Assembly: GCA_000004985.1 (NCBI GenBank)
Contig: GG738850.1
DNA from: Naegleria gruberi
Taxonomy: Eukaryota
Length of the DNA: 64,000 nt
Strand: one strand, 5' to 3'
Shown: positions 37,730 through 58,348 of the stretch, piece by piece
How positions within the stretch are numbered: the stretch's first letter is position 1
How the letters are laid out: the number at the start of each line of letters is the position of its first letter
Position numbers and translations under genes: made by a program
Notes under the pieces: model-generated
What the model was told of the DNA's origin: nothing
What the model saw: only the letters and a program-made list of their open reading frames with translations
Databases searched by the model: none

Positions 37730-38688
37730 TTACATTAAAAGACACTTTTCGTCCTTTCCACCTGATTTTTTAACTTTTGCAAAAACTTGAGAGGCACAAT
37801 CATTAAAGATTTCTTCCACATTCATTCTAGTCTTGGCACTTGCTTCATAGAATTGAATTCCTCCAAAACGTTGACATAGTTCAGTAGATTCCTCTTTTGT
37901 AACAGCTCTGTCACTTTCCAAATCTGATTTATTTGCAACCAGAATAATGGCAATGCTATTCTTGGCATTGGAATATTCAGATTCCTCAAGTCCTTTAGTT
38001 TGTAAAATGTGATCAATAAATTGGTAAGCTTCTTCAAAACTGGAACGATTTGTAATACTGTAAACAATTATGTATCCTTCTCCTTGTCTGATATACTATT
38101 TGTTTCGAATATGTAAGAATATGTAAAAAAACAGGGAAATTAATAAAAAACAATAAATTGAAAGAATTTTTCATGAAAATTACCTGATCTCTCAAAGTGT
38201 GAAATTCTCTATATTGTTGTTGTTATTGTTGTTGTGATTTAAATTATGAAAATTAAAGAAGAAAGGTCATGGTTTCATATCCGATAATATTGTCCAATTA
38301 GTTTCATCACATGATGATGAATTTAAAACTTACTCCTGACCAGCAGTATCCAAAATATCCAAAATTACTTCCTTTTTATCAATTATAGCATCTTTACGAT
38401 AACTTTCATTATTCGAAACTTTATCCTTCCATTAAATTACTTACGAATCTTCCAAGGTTGGGTCATAATGTTCAACAAAAACATTTTGAATCTTTGCAAA
38501 ATTAAATTATTTTCTAATTGATGAATGATAACTAACCAACTGAACAACATTCGTATAAATTATTATTCGAAACTTACTTGTACAATTAGAGCACTTTTCC
38601 CCACACCACCCGAACCGAAGACTACGATTTTAACTTCTTCCTTGCTTTTTTCCTTCTTCTTCTTTTCTGCCTTTTTGACAGGTGGCAT
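37730..38688 (-). CDS. Ras-family small GTPase, Rap/Ras-like (205 aa) with Lys-rich N-terminal extension and C-terminal CAAX box (CLLM); 5 exons 38578..38688, 38445..38491, 38334..38402, 38184..38208 (25-nt micro-exon), 37730..38095; introns 86, 42, 125, 88 nt
   Basis: Spliced product MPPVKKAEKKKKEKSKEEVKIVVFGSGGVGKSALIVQ|IQNVFVEHYDPTLEDS|YRKDAIIDKKEVILDILDTAGQE|EFHTLRDQ|YIRQGEGYIIVYSITNRSSFEE…ILVANKSDLE…EASAKTRMNVEEIF…KCLLM aligns along its whole length with Rap1/Ras (G1 GSGGVGKS, switch I YDPTIEDSY, G3 DTAGQE, G4 NKxD, G5 SAK). All junctions are GTAAGT/GTAATT…AG and keep phase. Total CDS is 618 nt. Confidence 0.8.
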
Positions 38689-39403
38689 TTTTTATTTGTT
38701 TTTGTTTGGCAAATTCACAGAAGGAAACTTGACTGTTGGATGCACCGACTTGTCAAACGATTGAATCACAATATCTTGTTGTATTAATTTCATTATCTTC
38801 TATTGAAAATCATACATTCGAACAATGTTTCCAATAATTTTGAGAAGATTGTTTACAATAAACAATTTATTCTTTTTTTTAGACTTGCTCCTTTGTTAAA
38901 ACATTCAAATCATCAATTACTCGTTTTTCAAACTCCAATAGAGGCACAACTGCCAAATGTCGTTAGCAATCCTTTTTGTTCATGTCTCCATCATGAATTT
39001 ACTTTTCCAATTCTAAATGAATCTTCTCCAAAACAGAATCATCTTTTCTTTATATAAACAAGAAATGGGCAATCTCGAAAGATAAAATCAAATAATTATT
39101 AAGTGCGAAGTTGCTGTCTCACAATAAACCATTCAAACTATTAAAAAAACAACAACTCACGAATTGCAAGATTTTCTTGTTACTCTAATCTGATTCTCTC
39201 TACCTGCCACCTTGCAAGGTACTAAAACACATCACTGACAGTTGGCAGTTTTCACGTTACTTATTCAAAGAGAGATCTCCAGTTACACAACTTGCTACTA
39301 CTAACCAGATAGGTTCATCAAGACACATTGTGAAAGTAAGTGTTTTTCTTCATTTTGTTAAAGAAAAAAACCTCAAACTATTCTTCATCAAACTTGCACA
39401 CAA

Positions 39404-40720
39404 ATGAAAACTTCAATAAGAAAGGAAGCAAAATTTCCCGCCTCTTTCTTAACAAGTAGAAATCATCATCATCACCAACCCAAAGGAAAGGAAGAATTAT
39501 CTTCAAGAAGCAAAAGACAACGAAGAATATCTGAGGGTAGTAATACTTATAATAATAATTGTATTCTTCAAATATCAACAGTATACAAGAAGAGTGAAGA
39601 ACCTCCGCTCTTATTAACAAGCCTTTCGAGTGATCAATTACTTGCAGACAACGCAAAAAAGCCTGCAATTTCTTCATCATTAACAATTGAAAACAATTTG
39701 GAGGACAATATAATATCCAAATATAGTCATCAGGAAAATATTCAAGAAACCAGTAATAATCGTTCAACCCTTAATCATCAACAACCCATTGCAAGTTTGC
39801 ATCATCATCAAGAAGAAGAAGATCATTTCCAATTTTCATCAGCCTTGCAAAATCTCTCTCTTCCACAACCTCCTTATCAACAATATCAATATAATATTAA
39901 TAATAATATCAATAATAATATTGAAAATTCTCAACTATCAAATAGTGTATCATATTCAAATCAAGAAGAAGAATATCAACAACCAATACTTGTATTCACT
40001 TCAGCTTCACCTCCTGTAAATTTTCAATCTTTAGATCTGTATCATCAATATCAATATTATCATAATCAACAACAGAGATTAAGATCACAATCCTTACCAC
40101 TTCCAAGACAGCAACATCGACAAGTAATTAAAACTTTTCAATTAACTTCAACTCTAGACGAAAGAAATATTCAACAATTTCAACAAGAACAAAAACTTCC
40201 AACCCAATTACTACTACCTTTGAAAATCATGTCCAATACTACTGATACCCATTCGAATCTTGAAGTTATTCAACAACATGACAATTCATCAGTTTCGGTG
40301 AGTCCACTGTCGCCAATGCCTCTACTTGCAGATAGTGGAAATCTAGATAATTATAAGGATCAATTTATAGCAATTATAAAAGAGGGCTCTTCTGAATTGT
40401 TAGATAGTGAGAAAGAATGCTTTGACATTCTTGGAACGTGCCCAAAATCTAATACGAAAGCTGCCTATTGGTATGGTAAATATGGTGGCCCATTCACATG
40501 GAAATATACTGGTGTGCCAATAGACGATTTAGATTTGGTGTGTAGAATGCACGACCAGAGATTACCATTGAAATTTGTAAAGAAACTTGTAAATCTTATT
40601 CGAAAGCATTATGGAGACAAACAGTTAAGCAAAGATGCCCTGAGCTACATTAAAAAGATAGATGGCATAGGCTTTAGAATAATAGAACCAATTTACATGA
40701 CATTCTTTGGCTGTTTCTAA
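39404..40720 (+). CDS. N/Q/H-rich low-complexity protein (438 aa) with C-terminal secretory phospholipase A2-like domain (plant/group XI–XII type, Cys-depleted)
   Basis: C-terminal …CPKSNTKAAYWYGKYGGPFTWKYTGVPIDDLDLVCRMHDQRL… resembles the sPLA2 Ca-loop YGKYCG and catalytic PCDxLDACCMxHDxC, with HD retained and several Cys replaced. N-terminal 300 aa are poly-Q/N/H low complexity. Confidence 0.5.
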   Translation: MKTSIRKEAKFPASFLTSRNHHHHQPKGKEELSSRSKRQRRISEGSNTYNNNCILQISTVYKKSEEPPLLLTSLSSDQLLADNAKKPAISSSLTIENNLEDNIISKYSHQENIQETSNNRSTLNHQQPIASLHHHQEEEDHFQFSSALQNLSLPQPPYQQYQYNINNNINNNIENSQLSNSVSYSNQEEEYQQPILVFTSASPPVNFQSLDLYHQYQYYHNQQQRLRSQSLPLPRQQHRQVIKTFQLTSTLDERNIQQFQQEQKLPTQLLLPLKIMSNTTDTHSNLEVIQQHDNSSVSVSPLSPMPLLADSGNLDNYKDQFIAIIKEGSSELLDSEKECFDILGTCPKSNTKAAYWYGKYGGPFTWKYTGVPIDDLDLVCRMHDQRLPLKFVKKLVNLIRKHYGDKQLSKDALSYIKKIDGIGFRIIEPIYMTFFGCF

Positions 40721-41384
40721 CTTGAGCTCAATGTTTCGTCCTTGCATTATTCGAAACGAAACTATGAAACTTCCACAATAAATTCACAAGATCACTTGAT
40801 AAAATATCTTTCATTTGCCACTAAATGGAACCTTCTTATCAAAAACAAAATATGTCTGTACAGACAACTAACATGTTTCCAAATTTATAATTACATCATC
40901 CGTTGTTGGGAACTGAAGTTTGAGCAATCTCCCTGCACGTAAAACTTTCATAAAAAAATTGAAAGAATCATCATCAACAATCTCTCACTTGTTATTGTGT
41001 CAAGTTTCGAATACACATTCTATACAACAATCTATTATTCGAAACAATAGTATTGTATCACATTGTGTTCATCCAACAAGAAACAAAATCACTCACCACT
41101 CTAAAAAAAAACCGCCAATTTCGAACTGTAAATTTCCGTATTTTTTTCTCTTGTTGGAAAAATAGATAACTTCATCATCGAGCGCGAAAAAGATTTTACA
41201 ATCAATTTTGTTGTACTTTGAAAAAGCATCTTTATCATCATTATATATTTTGGATATTATATTGGATCGGGAAGAAGGCTAAGATTCTACCTCTTTCTCT
41301 CTGATCAATTTTTCATCTTCATATATTGAATTAATTTTTGCCTGAATGATTTTGTAATCCTCAATAATAATAATAATCAGAATT

Positions 41385-43553
41385 ATGGAAAATCCAGAAC
41401 ATTTAACTATTAATCGAATTAATAATAATAATAATAGAGGCTCATTGATGATGATGAGGGTAAATTCATCCCCATTATCGCCCAATACTACTACTGGCTC
41501 AACAGCTTCAGCAACATCACCATCGACGACGTTGAACGATTCGAATTTATCTTTGGATGAACTTGATTCGTTAAGTAGTGCATCTTCGATGCATTCGAAT
41601 ACAATACTATTGAATCAATTTGTGGCAGCCGCTTCTAAAAAGACAAGAAAGAGTAGACCTACTAGTAATGACAGTATTGATGGGTTACCTCAAATTGGAA
41701 TTACTAATGAATTTGGAAATGTAAAGAGAGTAGCAAGTCCTCAGGAGGATGAAGAAAGTTTTGTGATGAGTGATTCTTCAAAGAGTGGAATGACCAGTAA
41801 TACATCGAGGTCTTCCTTCTCTTCAATGAATTCTTCATTCTTTGAGGAGTTGGAGGCACAATTTATGAATACATCGAGGTCAATACACTTGATTCATTTA
41901 TTATTGCATCCAGTGACAAAGGAATTATTCAGACAATACTGTATCAAGACGAGGGTTTGCGAGCTCTTTGATTGCCTGGAGGAAATTAGATTGTATTATG
42001 TGGCAATCGATACATTTAAAACACAATCTCATAAGAGAAAGATTGAGGAAATGAAACATTTACTCAACACGAATCAAAATTCTCCCAAGATCAGTGCCTC
42101 CTCTGAGAATATGTCTGTTTCTTCTAGTACTGATTCTCTTAAAAGGAAGAATAGAATGTCATTATCAGCGAGTGGTACCAAACTCTTTTCAAACAAACGT
42201 CAATCAGTAGCTCTCCTCTTTAATAATAATAGTAATTTGATGGAATTATTGCAGGAGAAAATTCATCAGGATAAGAATATGGATGAGGAAATTTCATTTA
42301 TGGGATTATTTTCACTTGGAACACAGGAAAAGGATCAAATTACAATAGAAGATATATCAAAAGAGGAGAGGGATTCCCTCAAGGAAAAGGCACAGAAAAT
42401 ATTCGACTCTTTTCTCTCTCCCAAATCAAATAGAGAAGTCAACATTGATAGCACACTCCGTTCTTCAATAGAGACCAACTTGAAAAATCTCGATTCAGAC
42501 CACTCTCTGTTTGAGAAACTTTATGAGGAATTACGTCTATTAATTCTAAGACAACTCAAAACTGACGTGTTGTTCAGGTTTGAAAAATCATCAGATTGGA
42601 CCACCTTCCTCTCTGATACTCATAATGTTTCAGTGGTGGAACAAGTTATGGATTATAGTAACTCTGTTTGGTCAGCCAATGCAGATTTTGGAGGATTTAA
42701 ACGAATGACCAAGAGGGATTGTGTCAGAGATTATGTCAAAAAGGAAGACTTTTCATTCATGAAACATGTTTTATTTGCACCTCTTCCACATTGGAAAAAT
42801 CTTACAAATACCAAAGCAACCAATTCTCCCTTCTCAACATCCTACTCGAAGGGAAAGTACTTCATTGATCAAGAATCAATTCGATTGAAATTTGGATGTC
42901 TCAAAGAAACAGCCACTCTTCCTTTCAGTGCTGAGGAAGTTTTTGCAGCCATTCACTCTAAACTCTTCCAATCCATCACAGATGACACTCTCAATGTCGA
43001 TGACTCGATATTTTGTCTCAAGAGCTTCTCTCACCGTGTAGTAGAAGGTATTCTACCAACTGACATAAGCAAGTTTTCTTTCAATTTGCCAATTCCACTT
43101 TCAAATCAAAGAGGTTGTTATCAAGCTCACTCTACAATTTATGAACCAGAGTCGAAACGATATTATTATTTCAGCAAACCAATTCTATTCAATGAAAATT
43201 ACTCTTTCGAAAAAGAGTCTGTACAGTGCTATTCATTCAATATGGTTTGTGTGGAAAAGGTTGATGACAGAAATTGTAAATACTACAGTGCTTTTATATC
43301 CAACTTTGGAGGAATTTTGAAACACTTCTCCACCAAGGTTTTTAAGAGAATTGCTTGGAAACGATCGAGTCAAACTCGAAAGTCTATGATAGAAAAGCTC
43401 ACTGAAAATCGAGATAGTTTATACAATAATACTAGAGATGGCTACGACACTTGTCTGGATAATCTCAAGAGGTATCAATCATGCTCCAATATTTCACTAG
43501 ATTTCCCAAAAACCTTTTCAGAGTTTCAAGAACGATTTTGCAAATACTATTAA
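41385..43553 (+). CDS. RGS (regulator of G-protein signalling) domain protein, 722 aa, Ser/Asn-rich N-terminus
   Basis: RGS domain is split by an insert: …LLHPVTKELFRQYCIKTRVCELFDCLEEIRLYY… and …KEKAQKIFDSFLSPKSNREVNIDSTLRSSIETNLKNLDSDHSLFEKLYEELRLLILRQLKTDVLFRFEKSSDW… (A..IY..FL…A..EVN+D…R..I…L..P…LF+…..+..LM..D.Y.RF..S). Confidence 0.6.
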   Translation: MENPEHLTINRINNNNNRGSLMMMRVNSSPLSPNTTTGSTASATSPSTTLNDSNLSLDELDSLSSASSMHSNTILLNQFVAAASKKTRKSRPTSNDSIDGLPQIGITNEFGNVKRVASPQEDEESFVMSDSSKSGMTSNTSRSSFSSMNSSFFEELEAQFMNTSRSIHLIHLLLHPVTKELFRQYCIKTRVCELFDCLEEIRLYYVAIDTFKTQSHKRKIEEMKHLLNTNQNSPKISASSENMSVSSSTDSLKRKNRMSLSASGTKLFSNKRQSVALLFNNNSNLMELLQEKIHQDKNMDEEISFMGLFSLGTQEKDQITIEDISKEERDSLKEKAQKIFDSFLSPKSNREVNIDSTLRSSIETNLKNLDSDHSLFEKLYEELRLLILRQLKTDVLFRFEKSSDWTTFLSDTHNVSVVEQVMDYSNSVWSANADFGGFKRMTKRDCVRDYVKKEDFSFMKHVLFAPLPHWKNLTNTKATNSPFSTSYSKGKYFIDQESIRLKFGCLKETATLPFSAEEVFAAIHSKLFQSITDDTLNVDDSIFCLKSFSHRVVEGILPTDISKFSFNLPIPLSNQRGCYQAHSTIYEPESKRYYYFSKPILFNENYSFEKESVQCYSFNMVCVEKVDDRNCKYYSAFISNFGGILKHFSTKVFKRIAWKRSSQTRKSMIEKLTENRDSLYNNTRDGYDTCLDNLKRYQSCSNISLDFPKTFSEFQERFCKYY

Positions 43554-44614
43554 AAATCCAACAATCTTCCAAAATCATGAATTCTTCTTACAAGCAGAGC
43601 CATCAAGGATCTTCCTCTCATGAACACAGATGTATCGTTTTGACAATTTGAAATGATGAGATATCTATTATCTGCCACAGTTGCCAAGAGTCTGAACTCT
43701 TCGTCTCCAACATTAAAAGTAGCTCTCCACACTGAATATTGATCGTAGCCCTTCTTTAGGAGCATTAAAACCATTTCCTTCTCTTCTGGAATTGTACATT
43801 CATGACCAAGAAGTGTTACTGTTGCAGGAGAATTTCCCTCGTGTGGTCTTAGATGTATTGTATTGAATAACTTGGTAAGATCTTCTTCGGAGGGTATTTG
43901 TTTCTCCTCTTCTGCATTTAATGGTTTTGGCCAATAGCCTAAAATTGCATGTTCCTTAGAATCGAATATGAGAGCTTGCTTAGCTCCACTAAAATCACCT
44001 GATTTGATCAAGTGATTCTTGAGGAAGATTGGATATCTTGAATGAGCTTTGGCATCATATTGGTCTACAGAAAATGACTTTTCCAAAGTTAATTTTACAC
44101 TCACTGCCTCATTAGGATTAGAAACAAGTTTTGGATCACCATCTTCTGCTCTTCCCAAGAAAACATGAGGTCTCACATCATTTCCATCACCAATTCTAAA
44201 TATCAAATCTTCAGTATTTGAGAGATTGATATCTTCTGAACAATTTTCAAAAGGCTTTGATCTCCTCACAATATAAACTTCCTCCTCTCCCTTAGCACAA
44301 ACATAATCATGAACACAATCCAAAGTATGTCCTTGTTGCCCTGCAACAACCATAAAATCTTCCGATCGTATCTCCCTAAAGCAAACAGCTTCTCCATACC
44401 TAACACTTCTCAAGCCATCAGAAAGCAAGCCTCCAGGCAAGGTGATAGAAAAGCACAAACCCTTAAAGTTGATGGTATCATAACGTTCAAAGAAATACAA
44501 CTGCTCGCCTCCCTTACCAAATACAAAATCATTTCCTAGGTTTGGTTCCTTACCGGGAGCTTCAAAGAATTTGAGATGGACACTTGAGCCAATTAAGAGT
44601 TCTTGTGGAGACAT
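43550..44614 (-). CDS. hypothetical protein, 354 aa; stop codon overlaps the stop of the convergent RGS gene on a TTAA palindrome (43550–43553)
   Basis: ATG-initiated uninterrupted ORF. I recognised no domain. Confidence 0.45.
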   Translation of the reverse strand: MSPQELLIGSSVHLKFFEAPGKEPNLGNDFVFGKGGEQLYFFERYDTINFKGLCFSITLPGGLLSDGLRSVRYGEAVCFREIRSEDFMVVAGQQGHTLDCVHDYVCAKGEEEVYIVRRSKPFENCSEDINLSNTEDLIFRIGDGNDVRPHVFLGRAEDGDPKLVSNPNEAVSVKLTLEKSFSVDQYDAKAHSRYPIFLKNHLIKSGDFSGAKQALIFDSKEHAILGYWPKPLNAEEEKQIPSEEDLTKLFNTIHLRPHEGNSPATVTLLGHECTIPEEKEMVLMLLKKGYDQYSVWRATFNVGDEEFRLLATVADNRYLIISNCQNDTSVFMRGRSLMALLVRRIHDFGRLLDF

Positions 44615-44804
44615 TTTTTTTAAAGTTTAATAAAGAAGTTTTCCCGCCAAAATCGTAAATCAACAAAATATTTAAAGAGATTTCTATCTGCCTAGTAATA
44701 ATAAATTCTTGTAAAATCCCACTAAAATTGAATTTCAAACAATTAAACTCAATTTCCTCCTCGTTTATTACATGGTTTCATTAGTTTCGAAAAATCAATG
44801 TAAA

Positions 44805-44877
44805 GCCGTCATAGCTCAGTTGGATAGAGCACAGGACTTCTAATCCTGGGGTCGTGGGTTCGAGCCCCATTGTCGGT
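44805..44877 (+). tRNA. tRNA-Arg (anticodon TCT)
   Basis: GCCGTCA-TA-GCTC-AGTTGGATA-GAGC-A-CAGGA-CTTCTAA-TCCTG-GGGTC-GTGGG-TTCGAGC-CCCAT-TGTCGGT-A. Canonical D-arm, 5-bp anticodon stem, U33, anticodon UCU, A37. The acceptor stem has one T·T mismatch (5–68) and a G·U at 1–72. Confidence 0.7.
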
Positions 44878-45185
44878 ATCTGATTTTTGTGCATTTGTTT
44901 TTAAGTTTTCAAAATATCTTATTATTTTAATTTCTTTTTCATATGATTATTATTCAACTTCACTAATATTGAGTGGTTCTAGCCATTATTAGCCAATTTT
45001 TTCTTTTTTTTATGAAAGAAACAAGAAGCAGCATGGAAGCTAACAAAAGGATTCCTCTCCAGTTGGTTTCCAATATTAGTTCGCCCAACTGTTCTTCACC
45101 CATAAGACACCAAAGGTTACCTTTAATGAGTGTTCAATAATAAGGGCTTAGGTTCGTTCTCTTCTCATAAAAAGATGTTAAACAA

Positions 45186-46958: not shown

Positions 46959-47004
46959 AGTTTAGTATTAACTATTTCACAAACGAAAGCTCAATAATAT
47001 TAAT

Positions 47005-48714: not shown

Positions 48715-48867
48715 TCAAGAGATGTTGTCGTATTTTATTTTAAACTTATGATATCATTGATAGTATATCTCTAAGCTTCCAATAAAAAAGGAGTCTGATT
48801 TACTCCATCAAGAAACACATCAATTCACGTAATGAGTTTTTGACGTTTTTATCTCTTATTCGAAACA

Positions 48868-50170: not shown

Positions 50171-50410
50171 CTACGCCTCCAACTAACTTCCAACTTACTT
50201 CCATTACAATAAAAATCCAAGTATTAACAATGTCATCAACAGCCCTTCACAAAACCACCCCCAAAATACATCCTCTCTATATTATCGAACTTTCCATTTG
50301 ATTTCCTCAACAATTCACTTCACACAAAGCCTCCTCTCAACTCGATGTCAAATCCAATAAATATCCACCAACAAAAACCTCAATTTCAAAAAATATCCGA
50401 TTAAAAAAAA

Positions 50411-51325
50411 ATGTTGTACGGTATTGGCACCTCACCTTCATACGGCACAACCTCCTCACAATATCAAGTCAGTTTTGACTCGATGAGTGAGAAGTTTAAT
50501 GAAAACTTCCCGATCATTTTGCAACAACGTATTCATCCGCAAAATTTCTCTGAAACGATGAATCATTGTTCAAAGATTATGAAGGAACAAATGGCAAATA
50601 TTCAAACCTCTAGATGGATGGGATTGTTGGTCTTTTTTGTTGTTTTCTTCTGTACTCTTGCATTGACTGGTATTCCATTGTTGGTTTATTTCTTGGCCTA
50701 TGCTAATAATGATAATAGTGATCCGACTGGTGGTATTGTAAGTTGATTATTTGTTGATCTGATGATGAAATTAATTGAATTTAATATTGACTTTAATATT
50801 GAAATAATGATGATGATGATTGTAATTTGATGAAATATAATATATTGTGGAAATTAGTGGGTATGGATTCTCTTCCCACTCTTGTATGTCTTTTTTATTA
50901 TTGTCCTCATTATGTGGTCAGTTAGAAGAAGACGTCAAATCATCAATTCACATGCTCAATGTAAAACTGCTCTTACTAATTATTTGGAACATGAAAATCA
51001 AACAATTTATAATAGAGCTGGAGTTCAATTAGTATTGAGATATGATACCAGAATTATTATGACAAATCGTTATACTATTGCTTTGACTTACAAGTATTTG
51101 ATGGTATTGCCTTGTATTGATGTTTATATTGCTGGAAACACACCTGTTGTTGTTAATCAAATTCAACCTGTTATCCAACAACCTATTGTCCAACAACCAA
51201 TTATCACTCAACCAGTTACTTATGATCCAAATGCTTATGGTGGTTATCAACAAGCTACTACTGTTTACTCTCAACCAACTCATCAATATGAAAAGGTTGA
51301 CAATCCTAACCAACCATTATTGTAA
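50411..51325 (+). CDS. small two-TM membrane protein with Pro/Gln-rich C-terminal tail (about 264 aa); exon 1 50411..50737, 120-nt intron 50738..50857 (ATT|GTAAGT…AAATTAG), exon 2 50858..51325
   Basis: Hydrophobic segments GLLVFFVVFFCTLALTGIPLLVYFLAY and WVWILFPLLYVFFIIVLIMW. Tail …PVIQQPIVQQPIITQPVTYDPNAYGGYQQATTVYSQP…. Splice is phase 0. Confidence 0.4.
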
Positions 51326-51445
51326 ATTATTAATAATACATTTTTATTATTGATTTACAATTTTAGTAATTTTCCTTAAATATATGAAACCCAGATCTAC
51401 GTAGATTCAACAGTATTGAAAAGGTGAAATTTCATTGTTAGAAAA

Positions 51446-54055
51446 ATGTTTGGAAATGAAACCGTTTCGAGTATGGAGGACATGAATGGCAGCTCAACCA
51501 ACAAACCAACAGTCGCACAAGCATCATCATCAACTGATAAGAAGTTTTCAATTATTGTAACGAATGAGGAATCAAAAACCTCAACAGATGTGAATCTAAT
51601 GGTGGATCCGCCACTTTATGAAATTGCAAATGAGAATAACCATCTACATACTACCAATATTGTCAACTCGAGAAGACCCTCTAATAACAGCACTACCTCA
51701 TCAATGATACATCCCATTCATGCCAAACCACATCCAATCTATGGCAGAAGGGATACCATCTTTACCTTTGATGAGGTAATCACTCATTTGCCAGAAGGAA
51801 CTAATCAAACTAATCAGCAGCAGCAACTGCCAAGCATTGAAGTGAATGAAAAGCAAAATCCCACACCAGGCAGCAACAATAGTGGGAATTTATTATTTGG
51901 ATATTGTGGGAGAGGAGTGAGGATTAGTCATGTACTATTAATTCTGTTCATCATTCAAGGATTGGTTGGATTGGTTCCATCCCTCATTCTCATGTACACG
52001 AGTGGAAATAGTATTTTGGAAAGAGTTTCTAAATTCCAGGCACAACAAACTCAAACCTATGTGAATTTTGAGATTAGTCGAATTGTTAATACTTCACAAT
52101 TAGTCATTCAACATATCAGATTTGAGTTGGAGAATGGATTTACACTTTCAAACCTCACAGAAATGACTTTATTTGCAACTTATTTGAGGAATCTTTATGT
52201 GAATAGATCTCCACTCACGGCTGTTCAATTTGGCATGTTTATGGATAATTATGTTGGTACATTAGATATTCCTCCAATTTATCCACCAGTAATTGAATAT
52301 TTGAATGGGACTGGAGATTTATTGTATCACTATAGATTAGAAGAAGATAGCATCGAAAATCCCTTGCAAGATCGATACCTTTACAATGTTGAACCTTTCA
52401 GATTCAAACCATCCCATAGACCTTGGTATGTGCCATTTACTCTCCCAAATGCAACAGAAAGAAGATGGTCAGAAATTTATGTTTCCACATTTGGACAGCT
52501 CTCTATCAATACTGCAATGCCTGTCTTTGTAAAGGAGAATATTACAGCTGCAGTATTGTCAGGGAAACCAATTGATCAGTTTAATTTTCAAATATGTGAT
52601 TGTAACCACCCTGATCACTTGTATGGAGTATTTGGAGCTCTGTTCGCACTCAAAGGACTCAATTCATTCCTCAATGACACTTCAAGACCTTACAGCTTTA
52701 TTAGTTACAGTTTTATTATGCAAAGAAATGGATCTGTCATTGCATCGAGTAGACATAACACGACCACATCCAGTAGCATTCTAGAAGAAGAGGAAGAGAT
52801 TGATCAAGTTGCAGCCTATATTATCAATCTAGGTCTATTCAAAAATAGTACAATTCCAGGTGAATGCACTTTCAAATTTAGAGGAAAGAATGTAGCCATA
52901 ACACCAGTCTATGATAATTATGGACTTTCTTGGGCTATTGTCATTGGATCTAAGGATGCAGATATTTTAAAAGAGCTACTATCGAGTGGAATGACTTCAG
53001 TTGTGGTTTTTATTGTCATTTTAGTTGCAGGATCCTTAGCATTATTTGTGACTGTACAGTTGTTTGCTCAGCCATTAAATAACGTGCACAGAAAGCTTTC
53101 TAAAATTTTGAGTGACAAGAATCTATCAAAGGATTTGTCAAATCCAAAAATTACAACTGCTGGACTGATTTTCTTTGATATTGGAGAAATGGAAAATGGA
53201 ATTAATTCGCTCAAGAGAGGAGTTTCAGCATTTTCTAAATTTATTTCACCAACAATAATGAAAAAAGTTATTAGAAATGAACATTATTTGGATGTTGGAA
53301 TGATAATTCAAAACATGTCAATTTTGGTTTTAAGTATTAGTAATTTCTCTCAATTAGCAGAACAAACTGATATTTCTACATTTGTTTCATTAATGACTGA
53401 TTATTTTGGAAGTTTGACAAAGGTGATGGAAGATCATCGTGGATTAATTGACATGATTACAGGCGAAAGATTGCAAGTAGTGTGGAATGACTCATCCATG
53501 CCTGTTGAAGAACATGAAGTGAGAGCATGTAAAGCTGCAATGGAAGCTATAGAAGTTGTTGAAGAATTGAATAACACCTGGATAAAGGAGAAACATTTGG
53601 AGATGGATTTTTCAGTGTGTATGAGTATTTCGAGTGGAAATATGATGTATGGTAGCATTGGAAGTGAGCATCGATTGAATTTCACAGCCATGGGAGATGA
53701 TGTCAATATAGCAGTAAAGTTGGCAAATCTCAATCCACATTATGAGGCCGATATTCTCATTACTGAAAATACCTATCAACATGTAAAGAATGAATTTGTT
53801 TGTTACTTTGTGGACTATATAATATTGAATGGAAAGGAAAGTCCAACCATGATCTACAGTTTGGAATGTGAAAGAAGTGTTGCTAGTGACCTTCAGGTAA
53901 AAGTAGCAACAGATTTGGAATTGGCACGTAACTATTGGTTCCAAAACAATTATAGAGCCATGTACGATATTTGTGAAAGATTGAGTCTCATTTCTCATTC
54001 AAAAATAATTAATAATTTATTGTTAAAAGCAAAAAGAAAAATTACACATAATTAA
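51446..54055 (+). CDS. receptor-type class III adenylyl/guanylyl cyclase-like protein (869 aa): TM1, about 340-aa extracytoplasmic sensor domain, TM2, cyclase-homology domain with non-canonical metal-binding residues
   Basis: TM helices ISHVLLILFIIQGLVGLVPSLILMY and MTSVVVFIVILVAGSLALFVTV. C-terminal …MSILVLSISNFSQLAEQTDISTFVSLMTDYFGSLTKVMEDHRGLIDMITGERLQVVWN…CMSISSGNMMYGSIGSEHRLNFTAMGDDVNIAVKLAN… aligns with VTILFSDIVGFT…KTIGDAYM…G.VN.A.R of class III cyclases. The two metal-binding Asp positions are Ser (LSISNF) and Glu (ITGERL). Confidence 0.7.
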   Translation: MFGNETVSSMEDMNGSSTNKPTVAQASSSTDKKFSIIVTNEESKTSTDVNLMVDPPLYEIANENNHLHTTNIVNSRRPSNNSTTSSMIHPIHAKPHPIYGRRDTIFTFDEVITHLPEGTNQTNQQQQLPSIEVNEKQNPTPGSNNSGNLLFGYCGRGVRISHVLLILFIIQGLVGLVPSLILMYTSGNSILERVSKFQAQQTQTYVNFEISRIVNTSQLVIQHIRFELENGFTLSNLTEMTLFATYLRNLYVNRSPLTAVQFGMFMDNYVGTLDIPPIYPPVIEYLNGTGDLLYHYRLEEDSIENPLQDRYLYNVEPFRFKPSHRPWYVPFTLPNATERRWSEIYVSTFGQLSINTAMPVFVKENITAAVLSGKPIDQFNFQICDCNHPDHLYGVFGALFALKGLNSFLNDTSRPYSFISYSFIMQRNGSVIASSRHNTTTSSSILEEEEEIDQVAAYIINLGLFKNSTIPGECTFKFRGKNVAITPVYDNYGLSWAIVIGSKDADILKELLSSGMTSVVVFIVILVAGSLALFVTVQLFAQPLNNVHRKLSKILSDKNLSKDLSNPKITTAGLIFFDIGEMENGINSLKRGVSAFSKFISPTIMKKVIRNEHYLDVGMIIQNMSILVLSISNFSQLAEQTDISTFVSLMTDYFGSLTKVMEDHRGLIDMITGERLQVVWNDSSMPVEEHEVRACKAAMEAIEVVEELNNTWIKEKHLEMDFSVCMSISSGNMMYGSIGSEHRLNFTAMGDDVNIAVKLANLNPHYEADILITENTYQHVKNEFVCYFVDYIILNGKESPTMIYSLECERSVASDLQVKVATDLELARNYWFQNNYRAMYDICERLSLISHSKIINNLLLKAKRKITHN

Positions 54056-55086
54056 ACCTTATTAGATTTGGAAAGTAGTGTTTGATTTTCATGAGATTCT
54101 TCCTCAGAACCATACGATAACTCAGAGTCATCTGTGTGATGGTTATTGTTACTGGTACTGTATTGAGAAGATACAGGACGACGAGCCATTTGAATATCCA
54201 TCTTTCCAATTCTATTTCTTTCTTGTTCAAATTTCTTCTCAGCACGATATGCATTCACATTATCAACAATGGCCTTGATGAGCAGGGAAATCAACATGAT
54301 AGCAATAATGGGTCCAAACATTGTAACCATAGCAACTGGAACATTAGGATTATGAATGGTTGTCTTGCAATATTGGAAAATCATATTGGTTGCAGTGAAT
54401 CCAGGAGTAAATGTTTGCATACTTTTCAGTTCAGCACCATTCTTGAATAGAATTGTTGTTTCAGGACCTTCGGAACTTGATTTAGCTGATCCACCTCCAA
54501 AAGTTTTGACATTTGAAAGTAAACTTGTTGGATAAATGACTGAAACTGAAATGTCCTTAATTACTTGAGCAGGATCATTGCCTACAGACCATAGGAATTT
54601 TGTTGAATTTTTAAACGAGAAGAAAGGTCCTCTAATCGAATATTTGTATTCGATTGTAAAAATTTGCATAGTATCAACTTGTTTTGAAAAATCTATCTGA
54701 ATGTAGTGATTCTTGCTGTTTGTTGTCGATTTATACACGTCAACATCAACTATTTTGTTACTTGTTGTTGAGACTATTATTGCCGAAACTTGTTCCACAT
54801 TATTTCCAAATGGCATACCCACAGGCAGATTTCTAGTAATTGTCTTGGTTTTACTATCAAAAATATAAGAAACTCTTTCTGTTACTTTCGCAACACACAA
54901 CAAATCACTATTCAATTTAATTTCGGATTCAAATTTTGTTATTGAATAATCTTGTTGTGTAGAATCTTGTACGAAAAGTAAAATAATTACTAGTATAATA
55001 CAAAGAGAGAGAAAACCTCTTGTTCTTCCAATGATCCGATCATCATATTTTGAAAAATGTCGTCCCCTGATGATGATTGTAGACAT
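54052..55086 (-). CDS. hypothetical membrane glycoprotein, 344 aa (N-terminal signal anchor, C-terminal TM); stop codon overlaps the stop of the convergent cyclase-like gene on TTAA (54052–54055)
   Basis: ATG-initiated ORF. Hydrophobic segments FLSLCIILVIILLF and VAMVTMFGPIIAIMLISLLI. Many NxS/T sites. I recognised no family. Confidence 0.45.
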   Translation of the reverse strand: MSTIIIRGRHFSKYDDRIIGRTRGFLSLCIILVIILLFVQDSTQQDYSITKFESEIKLNSDLLCVAKVTERVSYIFDSKTKTITRNLPVGMPFGNNVEQVSAIIVSTTSNKIVDVDVYKSTTNSKNHYIQIDFSKQVDTMQIFTIEYKYSIRGPFFSFKNSTKFLWSVGNDPAQVIKDISVSVIYPTSLLSNVKTFGGGSAKSSSEGPETTILFKNGAELKSMQTFTPGFTATNMIFQYCKTTIHNPNVPVAMVTMFGPIIAIMLISLLIKAIVDNVNAYRAEKKFEQERNRIGKMDIQMARRPVSSQYSTSNNNHHTDDSELSYGSEEESHENQTLLSKSNKV

Positions 55087-55535
55087 TTTTTTAAAATGAT
55101 GAAATTTCAGTGACTTGTCCTGACATGATTTTTGGAGGTAATTTGATGAAAAACTCTCAAATCACTCCTCATTAGTCAGTTGGTAATTTTGGCTACAATG
55201 CGAATATCAAATTTAATTCATCATGTTTTTATTAATATTAAACTGAATTGTAGTGTAAAGTGTTGTTTTTGTTGGATGGTGCTACAATAATAATCAAATA
55301 TTTTCATCATCAAATGATTATTATTATTTTAATTAAAAAATTAAATATTTTAATCATCGGGATGAAATAATCAATCAAACGATAAATTGATCAAACCTCA
55401 TATCCGTGAAAGACAAATCAAGTCCAAATAAGAACAATGGATATGCGTTCTTCACAGCTTCAACCTTTGAAAAAAACAAGACGATTTGCTTGCTGAAAAT
55501 CTTCTTTGCTCACGGAATCTTTAATTTATTATTTA

Positions 55536-56300
55536 TTATGGCATCACATTGGCAACAATATATTGAAAGGTAAGGAATATTTGAATTCTATGATGATGGA
55601 TGAATATTGTAAAATTATTACAAAATATTTAATATAATATTATAGTAATATTGTAAAATCTAGGTTTTTTACTCATGGAGCAATACACGGACTGAATGGA
55701 GCTAAATGGGCACAATCAGATGGATTGGAAATTACTAAAAAACAAGTGAAGGAATTGTTAAAGATTTTACAAGATGAAAAGTTGTCATCACCACGATTGA
55801 TTAATAGTTTGGTTTCGAATTCACAAGCACTTACTAATGTATCAGAGAAATCTTCCATCTTTTCAAATTCAGGTGATTTATCATTAGTGGTGGAAAATGA
55901 TGAATTGAAACGAAAATTATCAAATCTGTCACAGATCAGTACATCACTGGGTAATGTGGGATTGGAAATTAATTTCAATGGAAATCAAATGTTTAGAGTT
56001 GTAAATGTTGACAAGTATTGTGCCTTATTAGCTTGTTGGAATTTTGGAGATTCGGATAATGCTTCGTCAATTCCATTTTGTAAAGTATTTAATGTAGAAA
56101 AGGGAGAGTTCTTAATACCTCCAACTCATGTATTTTATTGTGTAACCACTAGTATGTGTATTCTGATAGGTTTGGTGAATAATTCATGTGTATTACCAGA
56201 AGATCATCATAATAATCAAGCCATAGAATTGACAAATTTTGATGTGGCTATGAAAACATTGGACAAGTTTGCAGATTACTTATTGGAATCTGGGTACTAA
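55536..56300 (+). CDS. profilin-like protein, enlarged (about 222 aa); exon 1 55536..55567 (MASHWQQYIE-), 96-nt intron 55568..55663 (AAAG|GTAAGG…ATCTAG), exon 2 55664..56300
   Basis: N-terminus MASHWQQYIER-FFTHGAIHGLNGAKWAQSDG… matches profilin MSWQTYVD…AAIIGHDGSVWAQS. C-terminus …VAMKTLDKFADYLLESGY matches …VERLGDYLIDQGY. The central region contains an insertion relative to canonical 130-aa profilins. Confidence 0.5.
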
Positions 56301-56810
56301 AACAATTTGGTACACTACTAGGAAACTAATTTATTAAAACGACAATTATTTGTTGTAGTTTGATGCAAGATCACATTAGGTTTTTTAGCAATTACAATAA
56401 TTACAATGTATTGTGTCCAAGAATTCTAATGGACAACCACGGTTGATTTTTACTAACACTTAAAGATCTAGATTACTCCCTCTGTCCAGAGCTGCCTGCA
56501 TAGCACATTCACTGTCAGTTTTCAATTGTTGATGGTATTTATTGTTCGAATATGGCAGGGCATTCAAAAATTGTAATTTGACGATTCGAAGGGTCCTTTA
56601 GAAAGTCTTATCCATCAAGAAAAAAACGAGAAAAGATCTGTCACAAGGTTTTGCTTATCAACCATATCACAAGCAGTACAGTCGAAATTTTCACAACTGT
56701 AGGTTGGCCAACCATGATTTTTTGTTGTTAATAATATTTGATGGTTTCTTTCGGATATAATTTGACAATGTGGATATTGACAATCTCTCTTCATGGATTA
56801 ACAGTTGGAA

Positions 56811-58289
56811 ATGATGAGAACACCATCATCTCCACCGACCAACAGCAACTCACCACAACAAGCTAGTATTCTTCTCAACAACAATATTTCTACAAATGTT
56901 TCCTCTTCGAATAAGAAAGTTACTATTTCATCATCAGCAGAGCCAATAGCAATGAACCAATCACAAGTTAATCTTGCCAATCCGAGTGAAAGTGGCAAGT
57001 CAGGAAGTTCGTTTAGTCAAAGTAAGATTACATTTCGTACATGTTGTGGTGTAATTGAGCTGACTTCTATGAAGTTGGCTTGTTTATTTGGAATGTTAGT
57101 CACTGTTATTGGATTATTAGTTTTGGCTGGTGTTGCAGTTGCAGCCTTTATTACTGCAACTTCCAAGTCGACTGAAATTTTAATTTCTGTTGGCAGAGTT
57201 ACTTCACAATTCGAAGGTGCTAATGCCATAATTGTCAGATATGTTTTCGCAGGAACAGCTGAAACATATTCAACAACTTTGGCTACTTATAAGAAATCCT
57301 ATCTTGCTCTTCAACAAAATTTGACAAACATTCTGGCAAATCTTAATGATCCTCAAATAGAGACAATTTTCAATTCCACAGCCATAACTGCTGTAAATAA
57401 TGTGGATTCCCTAAACACTATGATGATGTATATGGCTGGTGGAGTAACTAACACTCAGCGATCTGATGCAATTGAAAAACTCAATAGTGAAGTTTACAAA
57501 AATTATTTTACTACTTTCCGTTCAGGTTTGGATGAATTAGTGACCTATGTGCAAGAAAAGGAACAGGTAAAAGATCAGAATATTTTGGCAATCACATTGG
57601 TGCAGCTCATTATTATTGTACTTTCATTATTTGTCATTTTGCCTATCATTATATTTGTGTTTACATATGCCATTAATCGTGACTCGTTATATTTGGAAAA
57701 GATTCGTCGTGCTAATGCAGTCATGTTGATGGATACAATTGAGGATGAAGGTTTGAGAGCTCTTTTCAAGGTTCATTGTGAAAAGGAAAAGTCGAGTGAA
57801 AATTTCCTACTCCTTGAAAAGATTCAATATTATCGTTCTTTGTGTGAACGTTCTATAGATTTACAAATGAGATTATTTGGTCAGGATGCCGCTATAAGTG
57901 ATGCTCTGAGTGATATTTCGGCAGATTCATCTCACTCCTCAAAGAAAAAGAAGGAATCTCCATTAGAAAGAGAATATAACGAATTGGAGGCAAAGAAGTA
58001 TGAAGTTGCTTTTGAAATATTTACTGAATTTTTGGAAGTAACTGGTGATATGGCTGTCAATGTTTCAAAGGTTCTTACAGATTTTGTGAAGGATAAACTT
58101 GACAAGTTCAATGACAAACAAATTGATACCCTGCCAGAGGACATGTTTGATATTTTAGGAAAAGAAACATGTCTTGTCATGATGGATACTCACCATAGAT
58201 TCAAACAATCTCTTGCATTCCAACGTGAAATGAAGATTGACAAGATAAAGGTAGACCAGATAAAAAAGAAAAGGAATATAGAATTTTAA
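56811..58289 (+). CDS. two-TM membrane protein with extracytoplasmic helical sensor-like domain and C-terminal RGS domain (about 492 aa)
   Basis: TM1 LACLFGMLVTVIGLLVLAGVAVAAFI and TM2 ILAITLVQLIIIVLSLFVILPIIIFVF. RGS region …LRALFKVHCEKEKSSENFLLLEKIQYYRSL…AFEIFTEFLEVTGDMAVNVSKVLTDFVKDKL…LPEDMFDILGKETCLVMMDTHHRFKQS…. The track start at 56805 is TTG; the first ATG is at 56811. Confidence 0.6.
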   Translation: MMRTPSSPPTNSNSPQQASILLNNNISTNVSSSNKKVTISSSAEPIAMNQSQVNLANPSESGKSGSSFSQSKITFRTCCGVIELTSMKLACLFGMLVTVIGLLVLAGVAVAAFITATSKSTEILISVGRVTSQFEGANAIIVRYVFAGTAETYSTTLATYKKSYLALQQNLTNILANLNDPQIETIFNSTAITAVNNVDSLNTMMMYMAGGVTNTQRSDAIEKLNSEVYKNYFTTFRSGLDELVTYVQEKEQVKDQNILAITLVQLIIIVLSLFVILPIIIFVFTYAINRDSLYLEKIRRANAVMLMDTIEDEGLRALFKVHCEKEKSSENFLLLEKIQYYRSLCERSIDLQMRLFGQDAAISDALSDISADSSHSSKKKKESPLEREYNELEAKKYEVAFEIFTEFLEVTGDMAVNVSKVLTDFVKDKLDKFNDKQIDTLPEDMFDILGKETCLVMMDTHHRFKQSLAFQREMKIDKIKVDQIKKKRNIEF

Positions 58290-58348
58290 AGAAATTATTA
58301 GTTGTACAAATTTAGAGCTAGGAGTTTTGATAAATCAATTGACCATAA

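What the first reader, a model, noticed from the sequence alone, without database searches (positions are those of the whole stretch)
37730..58289. Signalling island with three RGS-domain genes (including a 7TM–RGS fusion), a Rap-like GTPase and a receptor cyclase within about 20 kb
RGS domains are recognisable in three separate genes: 41385..43553 (soluble, RGS split by an insert), 47005..48714 (seven TM helices directly fused to a C-terminal RGS) and 56811..58289 (two TM helices around an extracytoplasmic helical domain, then an RGS). A Rap/Ras-type GTPase (37730..38688) and a receptor-type cyclase homologue (51446..54055) lie in the same stretch. 7TM–RGS fusions (AtRGS1-like, fungal class VI GPCRs) are self-contained receptor-GAP modules. 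A TM-sensor–RGS with a bacterial-chemoreceptor-like periplasmic topology is unusual.
Basis: partly seen in the sequence, partly recalled or inferred. Interest (0 to 1): 0.55.

Follow-up and report, generated by a model that had tools for sequence, protein, structure and literature searches.

The report
Three RGS genes in Naegleria gruberi
This stretch of the amoeba Naegleria gruberi does carry three G-protein "off-switch" (RGS) genes, a Ras-type GTPase and a cyclase-like receptor, but the genome holds about 229 RGS genes, so the grouping is about what chance gives; the one modestly new item is a receptor family that joins a bacterial-chemoreceptor-like outer domain to an RGS domain.

Summary
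The window is Naegleria gruberi NEG-M: three products are identical to XP_002681426.1, XP_002681428.1 and XP_002681563.1.

- **RGS domains:** all three genes have one. They keep the equivalents of RGS4 E87, N128, D163 and R167.
- **41385..43553:** a soluble protein whose RGS box is split by an insert of about 100 aa.
- **47005..48714(-):** a true 7TM-RGS. It appears to be missing from the annotated proteome.
- **GTPase:** generic Ras family, with Q61, so not specifically Rap.
- **Cyclase homologue:** five of six catalytic residues are replaced, so it is probably a pseudo-cyclase.

The "island" reading is not supported.
- N. gruberi has 229 RGS genes, and random placement gives about one such triplet per genome.
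- The three RGS domains are at most 29% identical to each other, and unrelated genes lie between them.
- Three related loci share no neighbours. A fourth, a metagenome contig, places a cyclase next to a 2TM-RGS homologue.

7TM-RGS receptors are already characterised in N. fowleri. The 2TM-ectodomain-RGS family (at least eight N. gruberi paralogues, plus N. lovaniensis and Willaertia) is the only modestly new item.

The parts
37730..38688 (-). Ras-family small GTPase gene. Five exons: 38578..38688, 38445..38491, 38334..38402, 38184..38208 and 37730..38095. All introns are GT-AG. The 205-aa product ends in the CAAX box CLLM.
   Evidence: Splicing was reconstructed. The product is identical to XP_002681563.1 / D2V3R1. 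Pfam Ras scores 167 bits. Best PDB matches are R-Ras2, Rap1b and KRas at nearly equal scores.
41385..43553 (+). Soluble 722-aa protein with a split RGS box. RGS helices 1-3 lie at about aa 165-215 (nt 41877..42029). A low-complexity insert covers aa 216-318. RGS helices 4-9 lie at aa 319-403 (nt 42339..42593). The C-terminal part of about 290 aa matches no known family.
   Evidence: PF00615 rises from 41.4 to 52.4 bits when the insert is removed in silico. RGS17 is the best PDB match. No TM segment is found. Equivalents of the RGS4 contact residues are E193, N353, D394 and R398. The C-terminal part has no Pfam or PDB match.
44805..44878 (+). tRNA-Arg(TCT), lying between the RGS genes. It is not part of any signalling function.
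   Evidence: ARAGORN.
47005..48714 (-). 7TM-RGS receptor gene, 569 aa, a single ORF. The N-terminal tail carries four N-x-S/T sequons. Seven TM helices span aa 61-406 (nt 47497..48534). A disordered loop of about 100 aa lies between TM3 and TM4, and a beta-hairpin lies between TM4 and TM5. The RGS domain spans aa 412-566 (nt 47017..47481).
   Evidence: C128 (top of TM3) is nearly invariant and C305 (hairpin) is invariant in the family alignment.
51446..54055 (+). 2TM receptor-type cyclase homologue, 869 aa (XP_002681426.1 / D2V3R6). TM1 is at about aa 156-186, the ectodomain at about aa 187-506, and TM2 at about aa 507-544. The cyclase-homology domain spans aa 622-802 (nt 53309..53851) and has degenerate catalytic residues: S630, M670, E674, N745 and K758, with only N754 kept.
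   Evidence: The ectodomain has no Pfam or PDB match.
56811..58289 (+). 2TM-ectodomain-RGS receptor gene, 492 aa (XP_002681428.1 / D2V3R8). A conserved T-C-C-G motif lies at aa 77-80. TM1 is at about aa 84-111 (nt 57060..57143). The predicted four-helix ectodomain is at about aa 112-262 (nt 57144..57596). TM2 is at about aa 263-288 (nt 57597..57674). The RGS spans aa 300-478 (nt 57708..58244) and contains a disordered Ser/Asp-rich insert at aa 357-383. The tail is polybasic.

Best explanation
This is an ordinary stretch of the Naegleria gruberi NEG-M genome. It happens to hold three unrelated members of the organism's very large RGS repertoire, plus one member each of its large Ras and cyclase families.

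Each RGS gene most likely encodes a GTPase-accelerating protein for some of the roughly 44 Galpha subunits.
- **Soluble protein (41385..43553).** A cytosolic GAP with a split RGS box and an unassigned C-terminal domain.
- **7TM-RGS (47005..48714).** A receptor-GAP of the Naegleria 7TM-RGS family. It sits N-terminus out and RGS in the cytoplasm. It would hold self-activating Galpha in the GDP state until a ligand changes its GAP output or its location. This is the AtRGS1 paradigm and is inferred here.
- **2TM-RGS (56811..58289).** A second, separate kind of receptor-GAP. A fast-evolving extracellular four-helix bundle is continuous, through TM2 and one long helix, with a slow-evolving cytoplasmic RGS. 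A change in the ectodomain could therefore re-orient the GAP domain (inferred).

The cyclase homologue is probably catalytically dead. The Ras GTPase is not an RGS substrate. The co-location is best explained by gene-family size, not by a functional island.
For: - **Identity of the genome:** three products match NEG-M proteins exactly.
- **Family sizes:** 229 RGS proteins in N. gruberi (PMC3971589) and 44 Galpha (PMC8584482). N. fowleri has 28 7TM-RGS, 79 other RGS proteins and 80 cyclases, with GAP activity shown for three 7TM-RGS domains (PMC9283941).
- **RGS domains:**. The Galpha-contact residues E87, N128, D163 and R167 (RGS4 numbering) are kept in all three, and are invariant or nearly so within the two TM families.
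- **7TM:**. The family has 835 hits at E<=1e-3 and 90 at E<=1e-30, many full-length. The named ones I looked up are from Naegleria and Willaertia.
- **Conservation:** among N. gruberi paralogues the ectodomain is 41-52% identical, against 77-91% for TM2 and the RGS.
- **Chance expectation:** about 1 triplet per genome.
- **No recent duplication:**
- **No shared neighbours** in three related loci.
- **Cyclase residues:**
Against: - For a single random 64-kb window the triplet is rare (P about 0.0012).
- A cyclase and a Ras GTPase in the same 20 kb add a nominal factor of about 0.005, although that is a post hoc count.
- In one related metagenome contig (L003) a 2TM receptor cyclase lies directly beside a 2TM-RGS homologue. 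That hints at some linkage.
- No GAP activity, ligand, topology or expression has been measured for any of these proteins.
- The third RGS is 1 bit under Pfam's gathering score.
- N88 of RGS4 is replaced in two of the three domains (L194 and G441).
- Genome size and gene number (41 Mb, 15,727 genes) and the N. gruberi cyclase and GTPase counts (108, 182) come from my memory of Fritz-Laylin et al. 2010, not from a tool.
Confidence: 0.7

Rival explanations
1. The five genes form a functional, co-regulated signalling neighbourhood. Two receptor-GAPs, a soluble GAP, a receptor cyclase-like protein and a Ras GTPase would be kept together because they act in one pathway.
For: Local enrichment: P is about 0.0012 for one window. 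In the Naegleria-like contig L003, a 2TM receptor cyclase with intact catalytic motifs lies tail-to-tail next to a 2TM-RGS homologue. Its C-terminus is 37% identical to the window cyclase (E 3e-18).
Against: - The genome-wide chance expectation is about 1-2 such triplets.
- The genes lie on both strands and are separated by unrelated genes and a tRNA.
- No Galpha, Gbeta or Ggamma gene was found among the ORFs of the 64-kb window that were scanned against Pfam.
- No shared neighbours appear in N. lovaniensis, N. fowleri or Willaertia loci.
- With about 100 cyclase genes, one of four 20-kb loci holding a cyclase has a chance of about 0.2.
- The window's cyclase looks inactive.
Confidence: 0.12
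2. One or more of the three RGS domains is not a GAP. It would be a binding or scaffold module, as in GRKs, axin or sorting nexins. The soluble protein with the split box is the likeliest case.
Against: The residue that inserts into the Galpha active site (N128) and the D163/R167 pair are kept in all three. They are invariant or nearly invariant across the two TM families. Equally divergent N. fowleri 7TM-RGS domains are active GAPs (PMC9283941).
Confidence: 0.15
3. The ectodomain of the 2TM-RGS family is only a structural or dimerising helical bundle and does not bind a ligand. The resemblance to chemoreceptor sensors would then be generic four-helix-bundle geometry.
Confidence: 0.3

Closest known systems
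Naegleria fowleri 7TM RGS proteins (Bosch, Jeck and Siderovski 2022, PMC9283941) and Arabidopsis AtRGS1
   Same: Seven TM helices are fused to a C-terminal RGS domain. The organism has many Galpha subunits, some shown to be self-activating in N. fowleri. The nearest N. fowleri homologue (P0003, 'RGS domain-containing protein') aligns across both the TM and RGS regions, covering 63% of the query.
   Different: - Only 26% identity to the nearest N. fowleri protein.
- A short N-terminal tail with no EGF, lectin or GPS modules, unlike Nf 7TM RGS2-4.
- A disordered loop of about 100 aa between TM3 and TM4.
- The 7TM part matches no Pfam GPCR family, and by fold is closest to class C 7TM domains only weakly (TMt 0.44-0.50).
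- Homology of the 7TM part to AtRGS1 was not tested.
- This particular gene seems to be unannotated.
Bacterial 4HB sensor domains of chemoreceptors and histidine kinases (Tar/Tsr, MCP2201, Vc1313, TorS, HK9; Pfam TarH and 4HB_MCP_1)
   Different: - The protein is eukaryotic.
- The output is an RGS domain, not HAMP plus a kinase-control or kinase module.
- No HAMP domain was detected.
- Sequence identity is 7-13% and there is no significant profile match, so common descent is not shown.
R4/RZ-type soluble RGS proteins (RGS17, RGS10, RGS4)
   Same: The RGS fold and the E87/N128/D163/R167 contact set are present. RGS17 is the best PDB match of the soluble protein.
   Different: The RGS box is interrupted by an insert of about 100 aa between helices 3 and 4. 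The protein has a long low-complexity N-terminus and an unassigned C-terminal region of about 290 aa.
Bacterial-type class III receptor adenylyl cyclases (P. aeruginosa CyaB, Spirulina CyaC)
   Same: The cyclase-homology domain is the best PDB match (CyaB E 1.5e-15). It follows a 2TM receptor-like N-terminal half.
   Different: Metal-binding Asp 1 is Ser, Asp 2 is Glu, the substrate Lys is Met, the substrate Asp is Asn, and the transition-state Arg is Lys. Only the Asn is kept. It is likely a pseudo-enzyme.

Membership tests
RGS domain (PF00615) | Profile match at or above Pfam's gathering score (23.9 bits) | tested here: met
   41385 gene: 41.4 bits, rising to 52.4 bits with the insert removed. 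47005 gene: 28.9 bits. 56811 gene: 22.9 bits, which is 1 bit short, but 13 of its 23 homologues carry PF00615.
RGS domain (PF00615) | All-helical RGS fold | tested here: met
RGS domain (PF00615) | Galpha-contact residues (RGS4 E87, N128, D163, R167) | tested here: met
   All four are kept in all three proteins. N88 is kept only in the 2TM-RGS.
RGS domain (PF00615) | GAP activity on a Galpha subunit | not testable with these tools
   This needs a biochemical assay. It has been shown only for N. fowleri relatives (PMC9283941).
7TM-RGS receptor-GAPs (AtRGS1 / Nf 7TM RGS) | Exactly seven TM helices N-terminal to the RGS domain | tested here: met
   Seven segments by family-averaged hydropathy over 34 sequences. 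Seven TM helices in the AF2 model, pTM 0.73.
7TM-RGS receptor-GAPs (AtRGS1 / Nf 7TM RGS) | N-terminus outside and RGS cytoplasmic | tested here: inconclusive
   Four N-x-S/T sequons lie in the N-terminal tail. Conserved Cys residues sit at the top of TM3 and in the TM4-TM5 hairpin, consistent with a GPCR-type disulfide. There is no experimental topology.
7TM-RGS receptor-GAPs (AtRGS1 / Nf 7TM RGS) | Full-length homology to described family members | tested here: met
   The exhaustive profile search gives 90 proteins at E<=1e-30, many aligned over profile positions of about 12-545. The named ones I looked up are N. gruberi, N. lovaniensis and Willaertia RGS proteins. An N. fowleri homologue is P0003. 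Whether P0003 is one of the 28 listed by Bosch et al. was not checked.
4HB_MCP / TarH periplasmic sensor domains | Significant sequence-profile match | tested here: not met
   TarH E 0.022 (15 bits, cut-off 25.2) for the window protein. Only 1 of 19 family ectodomains hits TarH and 1 of 19 hits 4HB_MCP_1, among equally weak unrelated hits. The PDB profile search is negative.
4HB_MCP / TarH periplasmic sensor domains | Antiparallel four-helix bundle bracketed by two TM helices | tested here: met
4HB_MCP / TarH periplasmic sensor domains | Ligand binding that controls a cytoplasmic output | not testable with these tools
   The only indirect evidence is fast divergence of the ectodomain relative to the output domain.
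Class III nucleotidyl cyclases | Cyclase-homology domain | tested here: met
   PF00211 scores 37 bits. CyaB E 1.5e-15.
Class III nucleotidyl cyclases | Two metal-binding Asp, substrate Lys and Asp, transition-state Asn and Arg | tested here: not met
   The residues are S630, E674, M670, N745, N754 (kept) and K758 in the alignments to CyaB and CyaC.
Rap subfamily of Ras GTPases | Thr at position 61 and a closer match to Rap than to Ras or R-Ras | tested here: not met
   The motif is DTAGQE, i.e. Gln61. Scores are R-Ras2 157.5, Rap1b 153.3 and KRas 151.1 bits. It is annotated 'ras family small GTPase'.
Functional gene cluster ('signalling island') | Clustering beyond chance at genome scale | tested here: not met
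   Simulation with 229 RGS genes in 41 Mb gives 0.75-0.93 triplets expected, with P(>=1) of 0.51-0.59. It uses literature counts, not real coordinates.
Functional gene cluster ('signalling island') | Conserved gene order in related genomes | tested here: inconclusive
   No shared neighbours in L001 (N. lovaniensis), L002 (N. fowleri) or L004 (Willaertia). A cyclase lies next to the RGS homologue in L003. True orthologous loci and N. clarki could not be fetched.
Functional gene cluster ('signalling island') | Co-expression | not testable with these tools
   No expression data are available here.

The most novel reading that the evidence does not exclude
The 2TM-RGS family (at least eight paralogues in N. 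gruberi, plus N. lovaniensis, Willaertia and uncultured relatives) would be a so far undescribed class of eukaryotic receptor-GAP. Its ectodomain would be truly homologous to bacterial chemoreceptor or histidine-kinase 4HB sensors, perhaps acquired from bacteria. It would then be a bacterial-style small-molecule sensor wired directly to the switching-off of heterotrimeric G proteins. It might work alongside bacterial-type 2TM receptor cyclases, as the adjacency in contig L003 hints.
Probability: 0.15. Interest if true: 0.55.

Novelty: new variant of a known kind. Interest (0 to 1): 0.3.

Why it matters
Naegleria has one of the largest G-protein toolkits known, and receptor-GAPs rather than classical GPCRs seem to be its main input layer.

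If the 2TM family really senses ligands through a chemoreceptor-like bundle, it would be a second route from the outside of the cell to Galpha inactivation, independent of the 7TM route. It would also be a simple and tractable model for how a two-helix receptor controls an RGS domain. The close relative N. fowleri is a lethal pathogen, so its counterparts would be candidate drug targets.

The rest of the finding matters mainly as a caution. In a genome with 229 RGS genes, about 100 cyclases and about 180 small GTPases, a local group of signalling genes is expected by chance. A cyclase-homology domain also does not imply cyclase activity.

Tried and rejected
- **Dictyostelid origin.** I guessed this first from the poly-Asn tracts and low GC. 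It was rejected when the homologues turned out to be Naegleria and three products proved identical to NEG-M proteins.
- **Word-indexed profile search with the 7TM-RGS alignment.** It returned only the three proteins already known, so a capped search was wasted. The exhaustive search was needed to see the family.
- **Tandem duplication as the cause of the grouping.** Rejected: the three RGS domains are at most 29% identical over 89 aa, or show no significant match.
- **Other RGS genes in the window.** I asked whether the giant EGF/REJ ORF (16679..23227) is an adhesion-type 7TM-RGS like Nf 7TM RGS2-4. It is not: it has one TM and a short tail, then a stop. No other RGS was found among the ORFs scanned against Pfam: those of at least 140 aa in 37000..59500, at least 150 aa elsewhere (with three exceptions), and four smaller ones.
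- **Unassigned domains.** The C-terminal 290 aa of the soluble RGS protein and the 320-aa ectodomain of the cyclase gave no Pfam hit (E up to 10) and no PDB sequence match.
- **Sequence homology of the 2TM ectodomain to TarH or 4HB_MCP.** Noise level only.
- **AFDB fold search.** The library was not installed, so AtRGS1 and fungal class VI receptors could not be compared by fold.
- **N. gruberi genomic context of the paralogues.** The N. gruberi proteins tried (P0004, P0001) are not on record in the contig index.
- **Literature.** Anantharaman et al. 2011 (PMC3396428) and Bradford et al. 2013 (PMC4871593) are not held. No supplements are held for de Mendoza et al. 2014. A full-text search for 'RGS domain' together with '4HB_MCP' found no paper, and the broader search returned only two unrelated histidine-kinase reviews.


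Full report
**Source of the window**

The window has about 34% GC, long mostly intron-poor ORFs and short GT-AG introns. I first suspected a dictyostelid. That was wrong.

- The best homologues of the 47005 ORF are Naegleria proteins.
- The product of 56811..58289 is 100% identical to N. gruberi XP_002681428.1 on a 707,703-bp scaffold.
- The cyclase ORF is identical to XP_002681426.1.
- My five-exon reconstruction of the GTPase is identical to XP_002681563.1, 'ras family small GTPase'.

The window is therefore N. gruberi strain NEG-M.

**Checking the observation**

*Soluble protein, 41385..43553.* It matches only profile positions 34-112 (41.4 bits, aa 321-403). When aa 216-318 are removed in silico, the match runs from position 3 to 112 and rises to 52.4 bits. 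The RGS box is therefore really split by a low-complexity insert of about 100 aa. The protein has no TM segment.

*7TM-RGS, 47005..48714(-).* It scores 28.9 bits. A profile of 34 family members hits RGS10 at E 7e-14.

*Contact residues.* An alignment with RGS4 shows that all three keep the equivalents of E87, N128, D163 and R167:
- E193/N353/D394/R398 in the soluble protein;
- E440/N481/D523/R527 in the 7TM-RGS;
- E330/N417/D459/R463 in the 2TM-RGS.

In the two membrane families these positions are invariant or nearly invariant. N88 is kept only in the 2TM-RGS.

**The 7TM-RGS**

A single-sequence hydropathy scan at a strict threshold saw only five strong segments. Hydropathy averaged over 34 family members gives exactly seven: about aa 62-82, 100-118, 126-149, 258-281, 309-332, 348-369 and 377-399.

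The AlphaFold2 model (mean pLDDT 82.3, pTM 0.73) has:
- seven TM helices;
- a disordered loop of about 100 aa between TM3 and TM4;
- a beta-hairpin between TM4 and TM5;
- a helical RGS domain.

By Foldseek the RGS part matches RGS16, RGS8 and RGS4 (TMt 0.77-0.83). The 7TM part matches class C GPCR transmembrane domains weakly (mGlu5, TMt 0.44-0.50). Four N-x-S/T sequons lie in the N-terminal tail. Conserved cysteines sit at the top of TM3 (C128) and in the hairpin (C305). Both features fit an N-out, GPCR-like topology with the RGS inside the cell.

An exhaustive profile search finds 835 relatives at E<=1e-3 and 90 at E<=1e-30, many aligned over both the 7TM and RGS parts. Of the ten I looked up, the five that carry names are from N. 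gruberi, N. lovaniensis and Willaertia magna.

The window's own protein has no identical or near-identical entry in the protein collection; the best match is a 70% paralogue. The gene therefore looks unannotated in NEG-M.

**The 2TM-RGS**

Two strong hydrophobic segments (about aa 84-111 and 263-288) bracket about 150 residues. The AF2 model (pLDDT 72.6 overall, 72-89 in this region) folds this stretch into four long antiparallel helices. The first continues from TM1. The last runs through TM2 as one helix (aa 227-311) up to the RGS domain.

- **Sequence evidence.** It is at noise level. TarH gives E 0.022 for the window protein. One of 19 family ectodomains hits TarH and one hits 4HB_MCP_1. 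A PDB profile search finds nothing.

I therefore say it works like, and is shaped like, a 4HB sensor. I do not file it as a member of that family.

The family is not rare in this lineage. There are at least eight N. gruberi paralogues (five at 65-68% identity and three at 32%), plus N. lovaniensis, Willaertia and environmental sequences. Among the close paralogues the ectodomain is only 41-52% identical, while TM2 and the RGS are 77-91% identical. That is the pattern expected if the outer domain diversifies for different signals while the output stays fixed.

Other conserved features are a T-C-C-G motif just before TM1, which is a possible acylation site (my inference), and a polybasic C-terminal tail.

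**GTPase and cyclase**

The GTPase is a standard Ras-family protein with a CAAX box. It scores almost equally against R-Ras2, Rap1b and KRas. It has Gln, not Thr, at position 61, so 'Rap-like' is too specific. RGS proteins act on heterotrimeric Galpha, not on Ras or Rap, so there is no direct biochemical link to the RGS genes (established knowledge).

The cyclase homologue has a clear cyclase-homology domain (CyaB E 1.5e-15) behind a layout of TM, ectodomain and TM. In the alignments to the active enzymes CyaB and CyaC, five of the six catalytic residues are replaced:

| Role | Active cyclases | Window protein |
|---|---|---|
| Metal-binding Asp 1 | D | S630 |
| Substrate Lys | K | M670 |
| Metal-binding Asp 2 | D | E674 |
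| Substrate Asp | D | N745 |
| Transition-state Asn | N | N754 (kept) |
| Transition-state Arg | R | K758 |

 It lacks both the C1-type and the C2-type residue sets. It is therefore most likely inactive even in a heterodimer (my inference).

**Is it an island?**

Published counts are:
- 229 RGS proteins in N. gruberi (PMC3971589);
- 44 Galpha in N. gruberi (PMC8584482);
- 28 7TM-RGS, 79 other RGS proteins and 80 cyclases in N. fowleri (PMC9283941).

This gives 0.75-0.93 triplets with this span per genome, with P(>=1) of 0.51-0.59. In gene-order terms it gives 1.7-2.4. For one pre-chosen 64-kb window the probability is 0.0012. The grouping is locally striking but expected somewhere in the genome.

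Further points against an island:
- The three RGS domains are mutually at most 29% identical, so they are not tandem duplicates.
- The five signalling genes lie on both strands. Between them are a PLA2-like ORF, an unknown ORF, tRNA-Arg(TCT), a GT10 fucosyltransferase, a BTB_2 gene, a weak Erf4-like ORF, a DUF2207 membrane protein and further unknowns; a GDSL lipase lies just beyond the 2TM-RGS.
- No G-protein subunit gene was found among the scanned ORFs of the window.
- Loci of about 20 kb around the nearest homologues in N. lovaniensis (L001), N. fowleri (L002) and Willaertia (L004) share no other gene with the window.

There is one exception. In a 14-kb Naegleria-like metagenome contig (L003), a multi-exon 2TM receptor cyclase lies tail-to-tail next to a 2TM-RGS homologue. 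That cyclase has intact catalytic motifs (FTDVVDFT, KFIGD, VNTAGRLE), and its C-terminus is 37% identical to the window cyclase. With about 100 cyclase genes per genome, the chance that one of four loci holds a cyclase within 10 kb is about 0.2. This is a lead, not evidence.

**Mechanism**

What is shown here: domain content, topology predictions and conservation of the contact residues.

What is shown elsewhere: isolated RGS domains of N. fowleri 7TM-RGS proteins bind the transition state of several Nf Galpha subunits and accelerate their GTP hydrolysis. Some of those Galpha subunits are self-activating (PMC9283941).

What is inferred: the two membrane proteins in this window are receptor-GAPs that keep Galpha switched off until an extracellular signal changes their GAP output or location, as proposed for AtRGS1. 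In the 2TM family the signal would travel along the continuous helix from ectodomain through TM2 to the RGS, as in bacterial two-helix receptors.

**Novelty**

- 7TM-RGS receptors in Naegleria are already known and partly characterised.
- RGS proteins with TM segments in many lineages were counted by de Mendoza et al..
- I found no paper in the held library describing an RGS behind a chemoreceptor-like four-helix ectodomain. The most relevant comparative paper, Anantharaman et al. 2011, could not be read.

I rate the whole finding as a new variant of a known kind, with low to moderate interest.

Noticed in passing
window 47005..48714 (-): The intact 569-aa 7TM-RGS ORF has no identical or near-identical entry in the protein collection; the best match is a 70% paralogue on another scaffold. 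Neighbouring genes are present as NEG-M RefSeq proteins. It looks like a gene missed by the N. gruberi annotation.
   Followed up: partly
window 51446..54055 (+), aa 630, 670, 674, 745, 758: The receptor-type cyclase homologue (XP_002681426.1) has five of the six canonical class III catalytic residues replaced (D>S, K>M, D>E, D>N, R>K). It is probably a pseudo-cyclase.
   Followed up: yes
L003 5392..7224 (+) and about 7580..11432 (-): In a 14-kb Naegleria-like metagenome contig, a 2TM-RGS homologue lies tail-to-tail beside a multi-exon 2TM receptor cyclase with intact catalytic motifs. The cyclase is related to the window's cyclase at the C-terminus (37% identity, E 3e-18). This could reflect recurrent cyclase/RGS linkage, or it could be chance (about 0.2).
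   Followed up: partly
window 57039..57050 (aa 77-80 of the 2TM-RGS): A T-C-C-G motif just before TM1 is invariant or nearly invariant across 21 family members. AF2 places it in a short beta-hairpin. It may be an acylation site, but its function is unknown.
   Followed up: no
window 42657..43550 (+): The C-terminal part of about 290 aa of the soluble RGS protein matches no Pfam family and no PDB sequence. It is an unassigned domain attached to an RGS.
   Followed up: partly
window 51992..52990 (+): The 320-aa ectodomain of the cyclase homologue, rich in N-x-S/T sequons, matches no Pfam family and no PDB sequence.
   Followed up: partly
window 44805..44878 (+): A tRNA-Arg(TCT) gene lies between the soluble RGS gene and the 7TM-RGS gene.
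   Followed up: no
window 16679..23227 (-) and 24102..27674 (+): Two large divergently oriented genes encode EGF-repeat surface proteins. The first is 2182 aa, with teneurin-type EGF repeats, PKD and REJ domains, one TM and a short tail. It resembles the ectodomains of N. fowleri adhesion-type 7TM-RGS proteins but has no 7TM or RGS part.
   Followed up: partly
window 27685..29094 (-) and 29101..31077 (-): Two adjacent same-strand ORFs each match part of the sodium:neurotransmitter symporter family (profile 321-391 and 156-314 in the best stretches). They are probably one gene interrupted by a short intron or a stop. Similarly, RCC1-repeat ORFs at 32788..34431 and 34509..35414 look like one split gene.
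   Followed up: no
window 49227..49667 (+) and 50411..50746 (+): Between the 7TM-RGS and the cyclase lie a BTB_2 (KCTD-like) ORF (37 bits) and a weak Erf4/GOLGA7-like ORF (21 bits, below the cut-off). Erf4 is the Ras palmitoyltransferase subunit family. The gene models here are unresolved.
   Followed up: no
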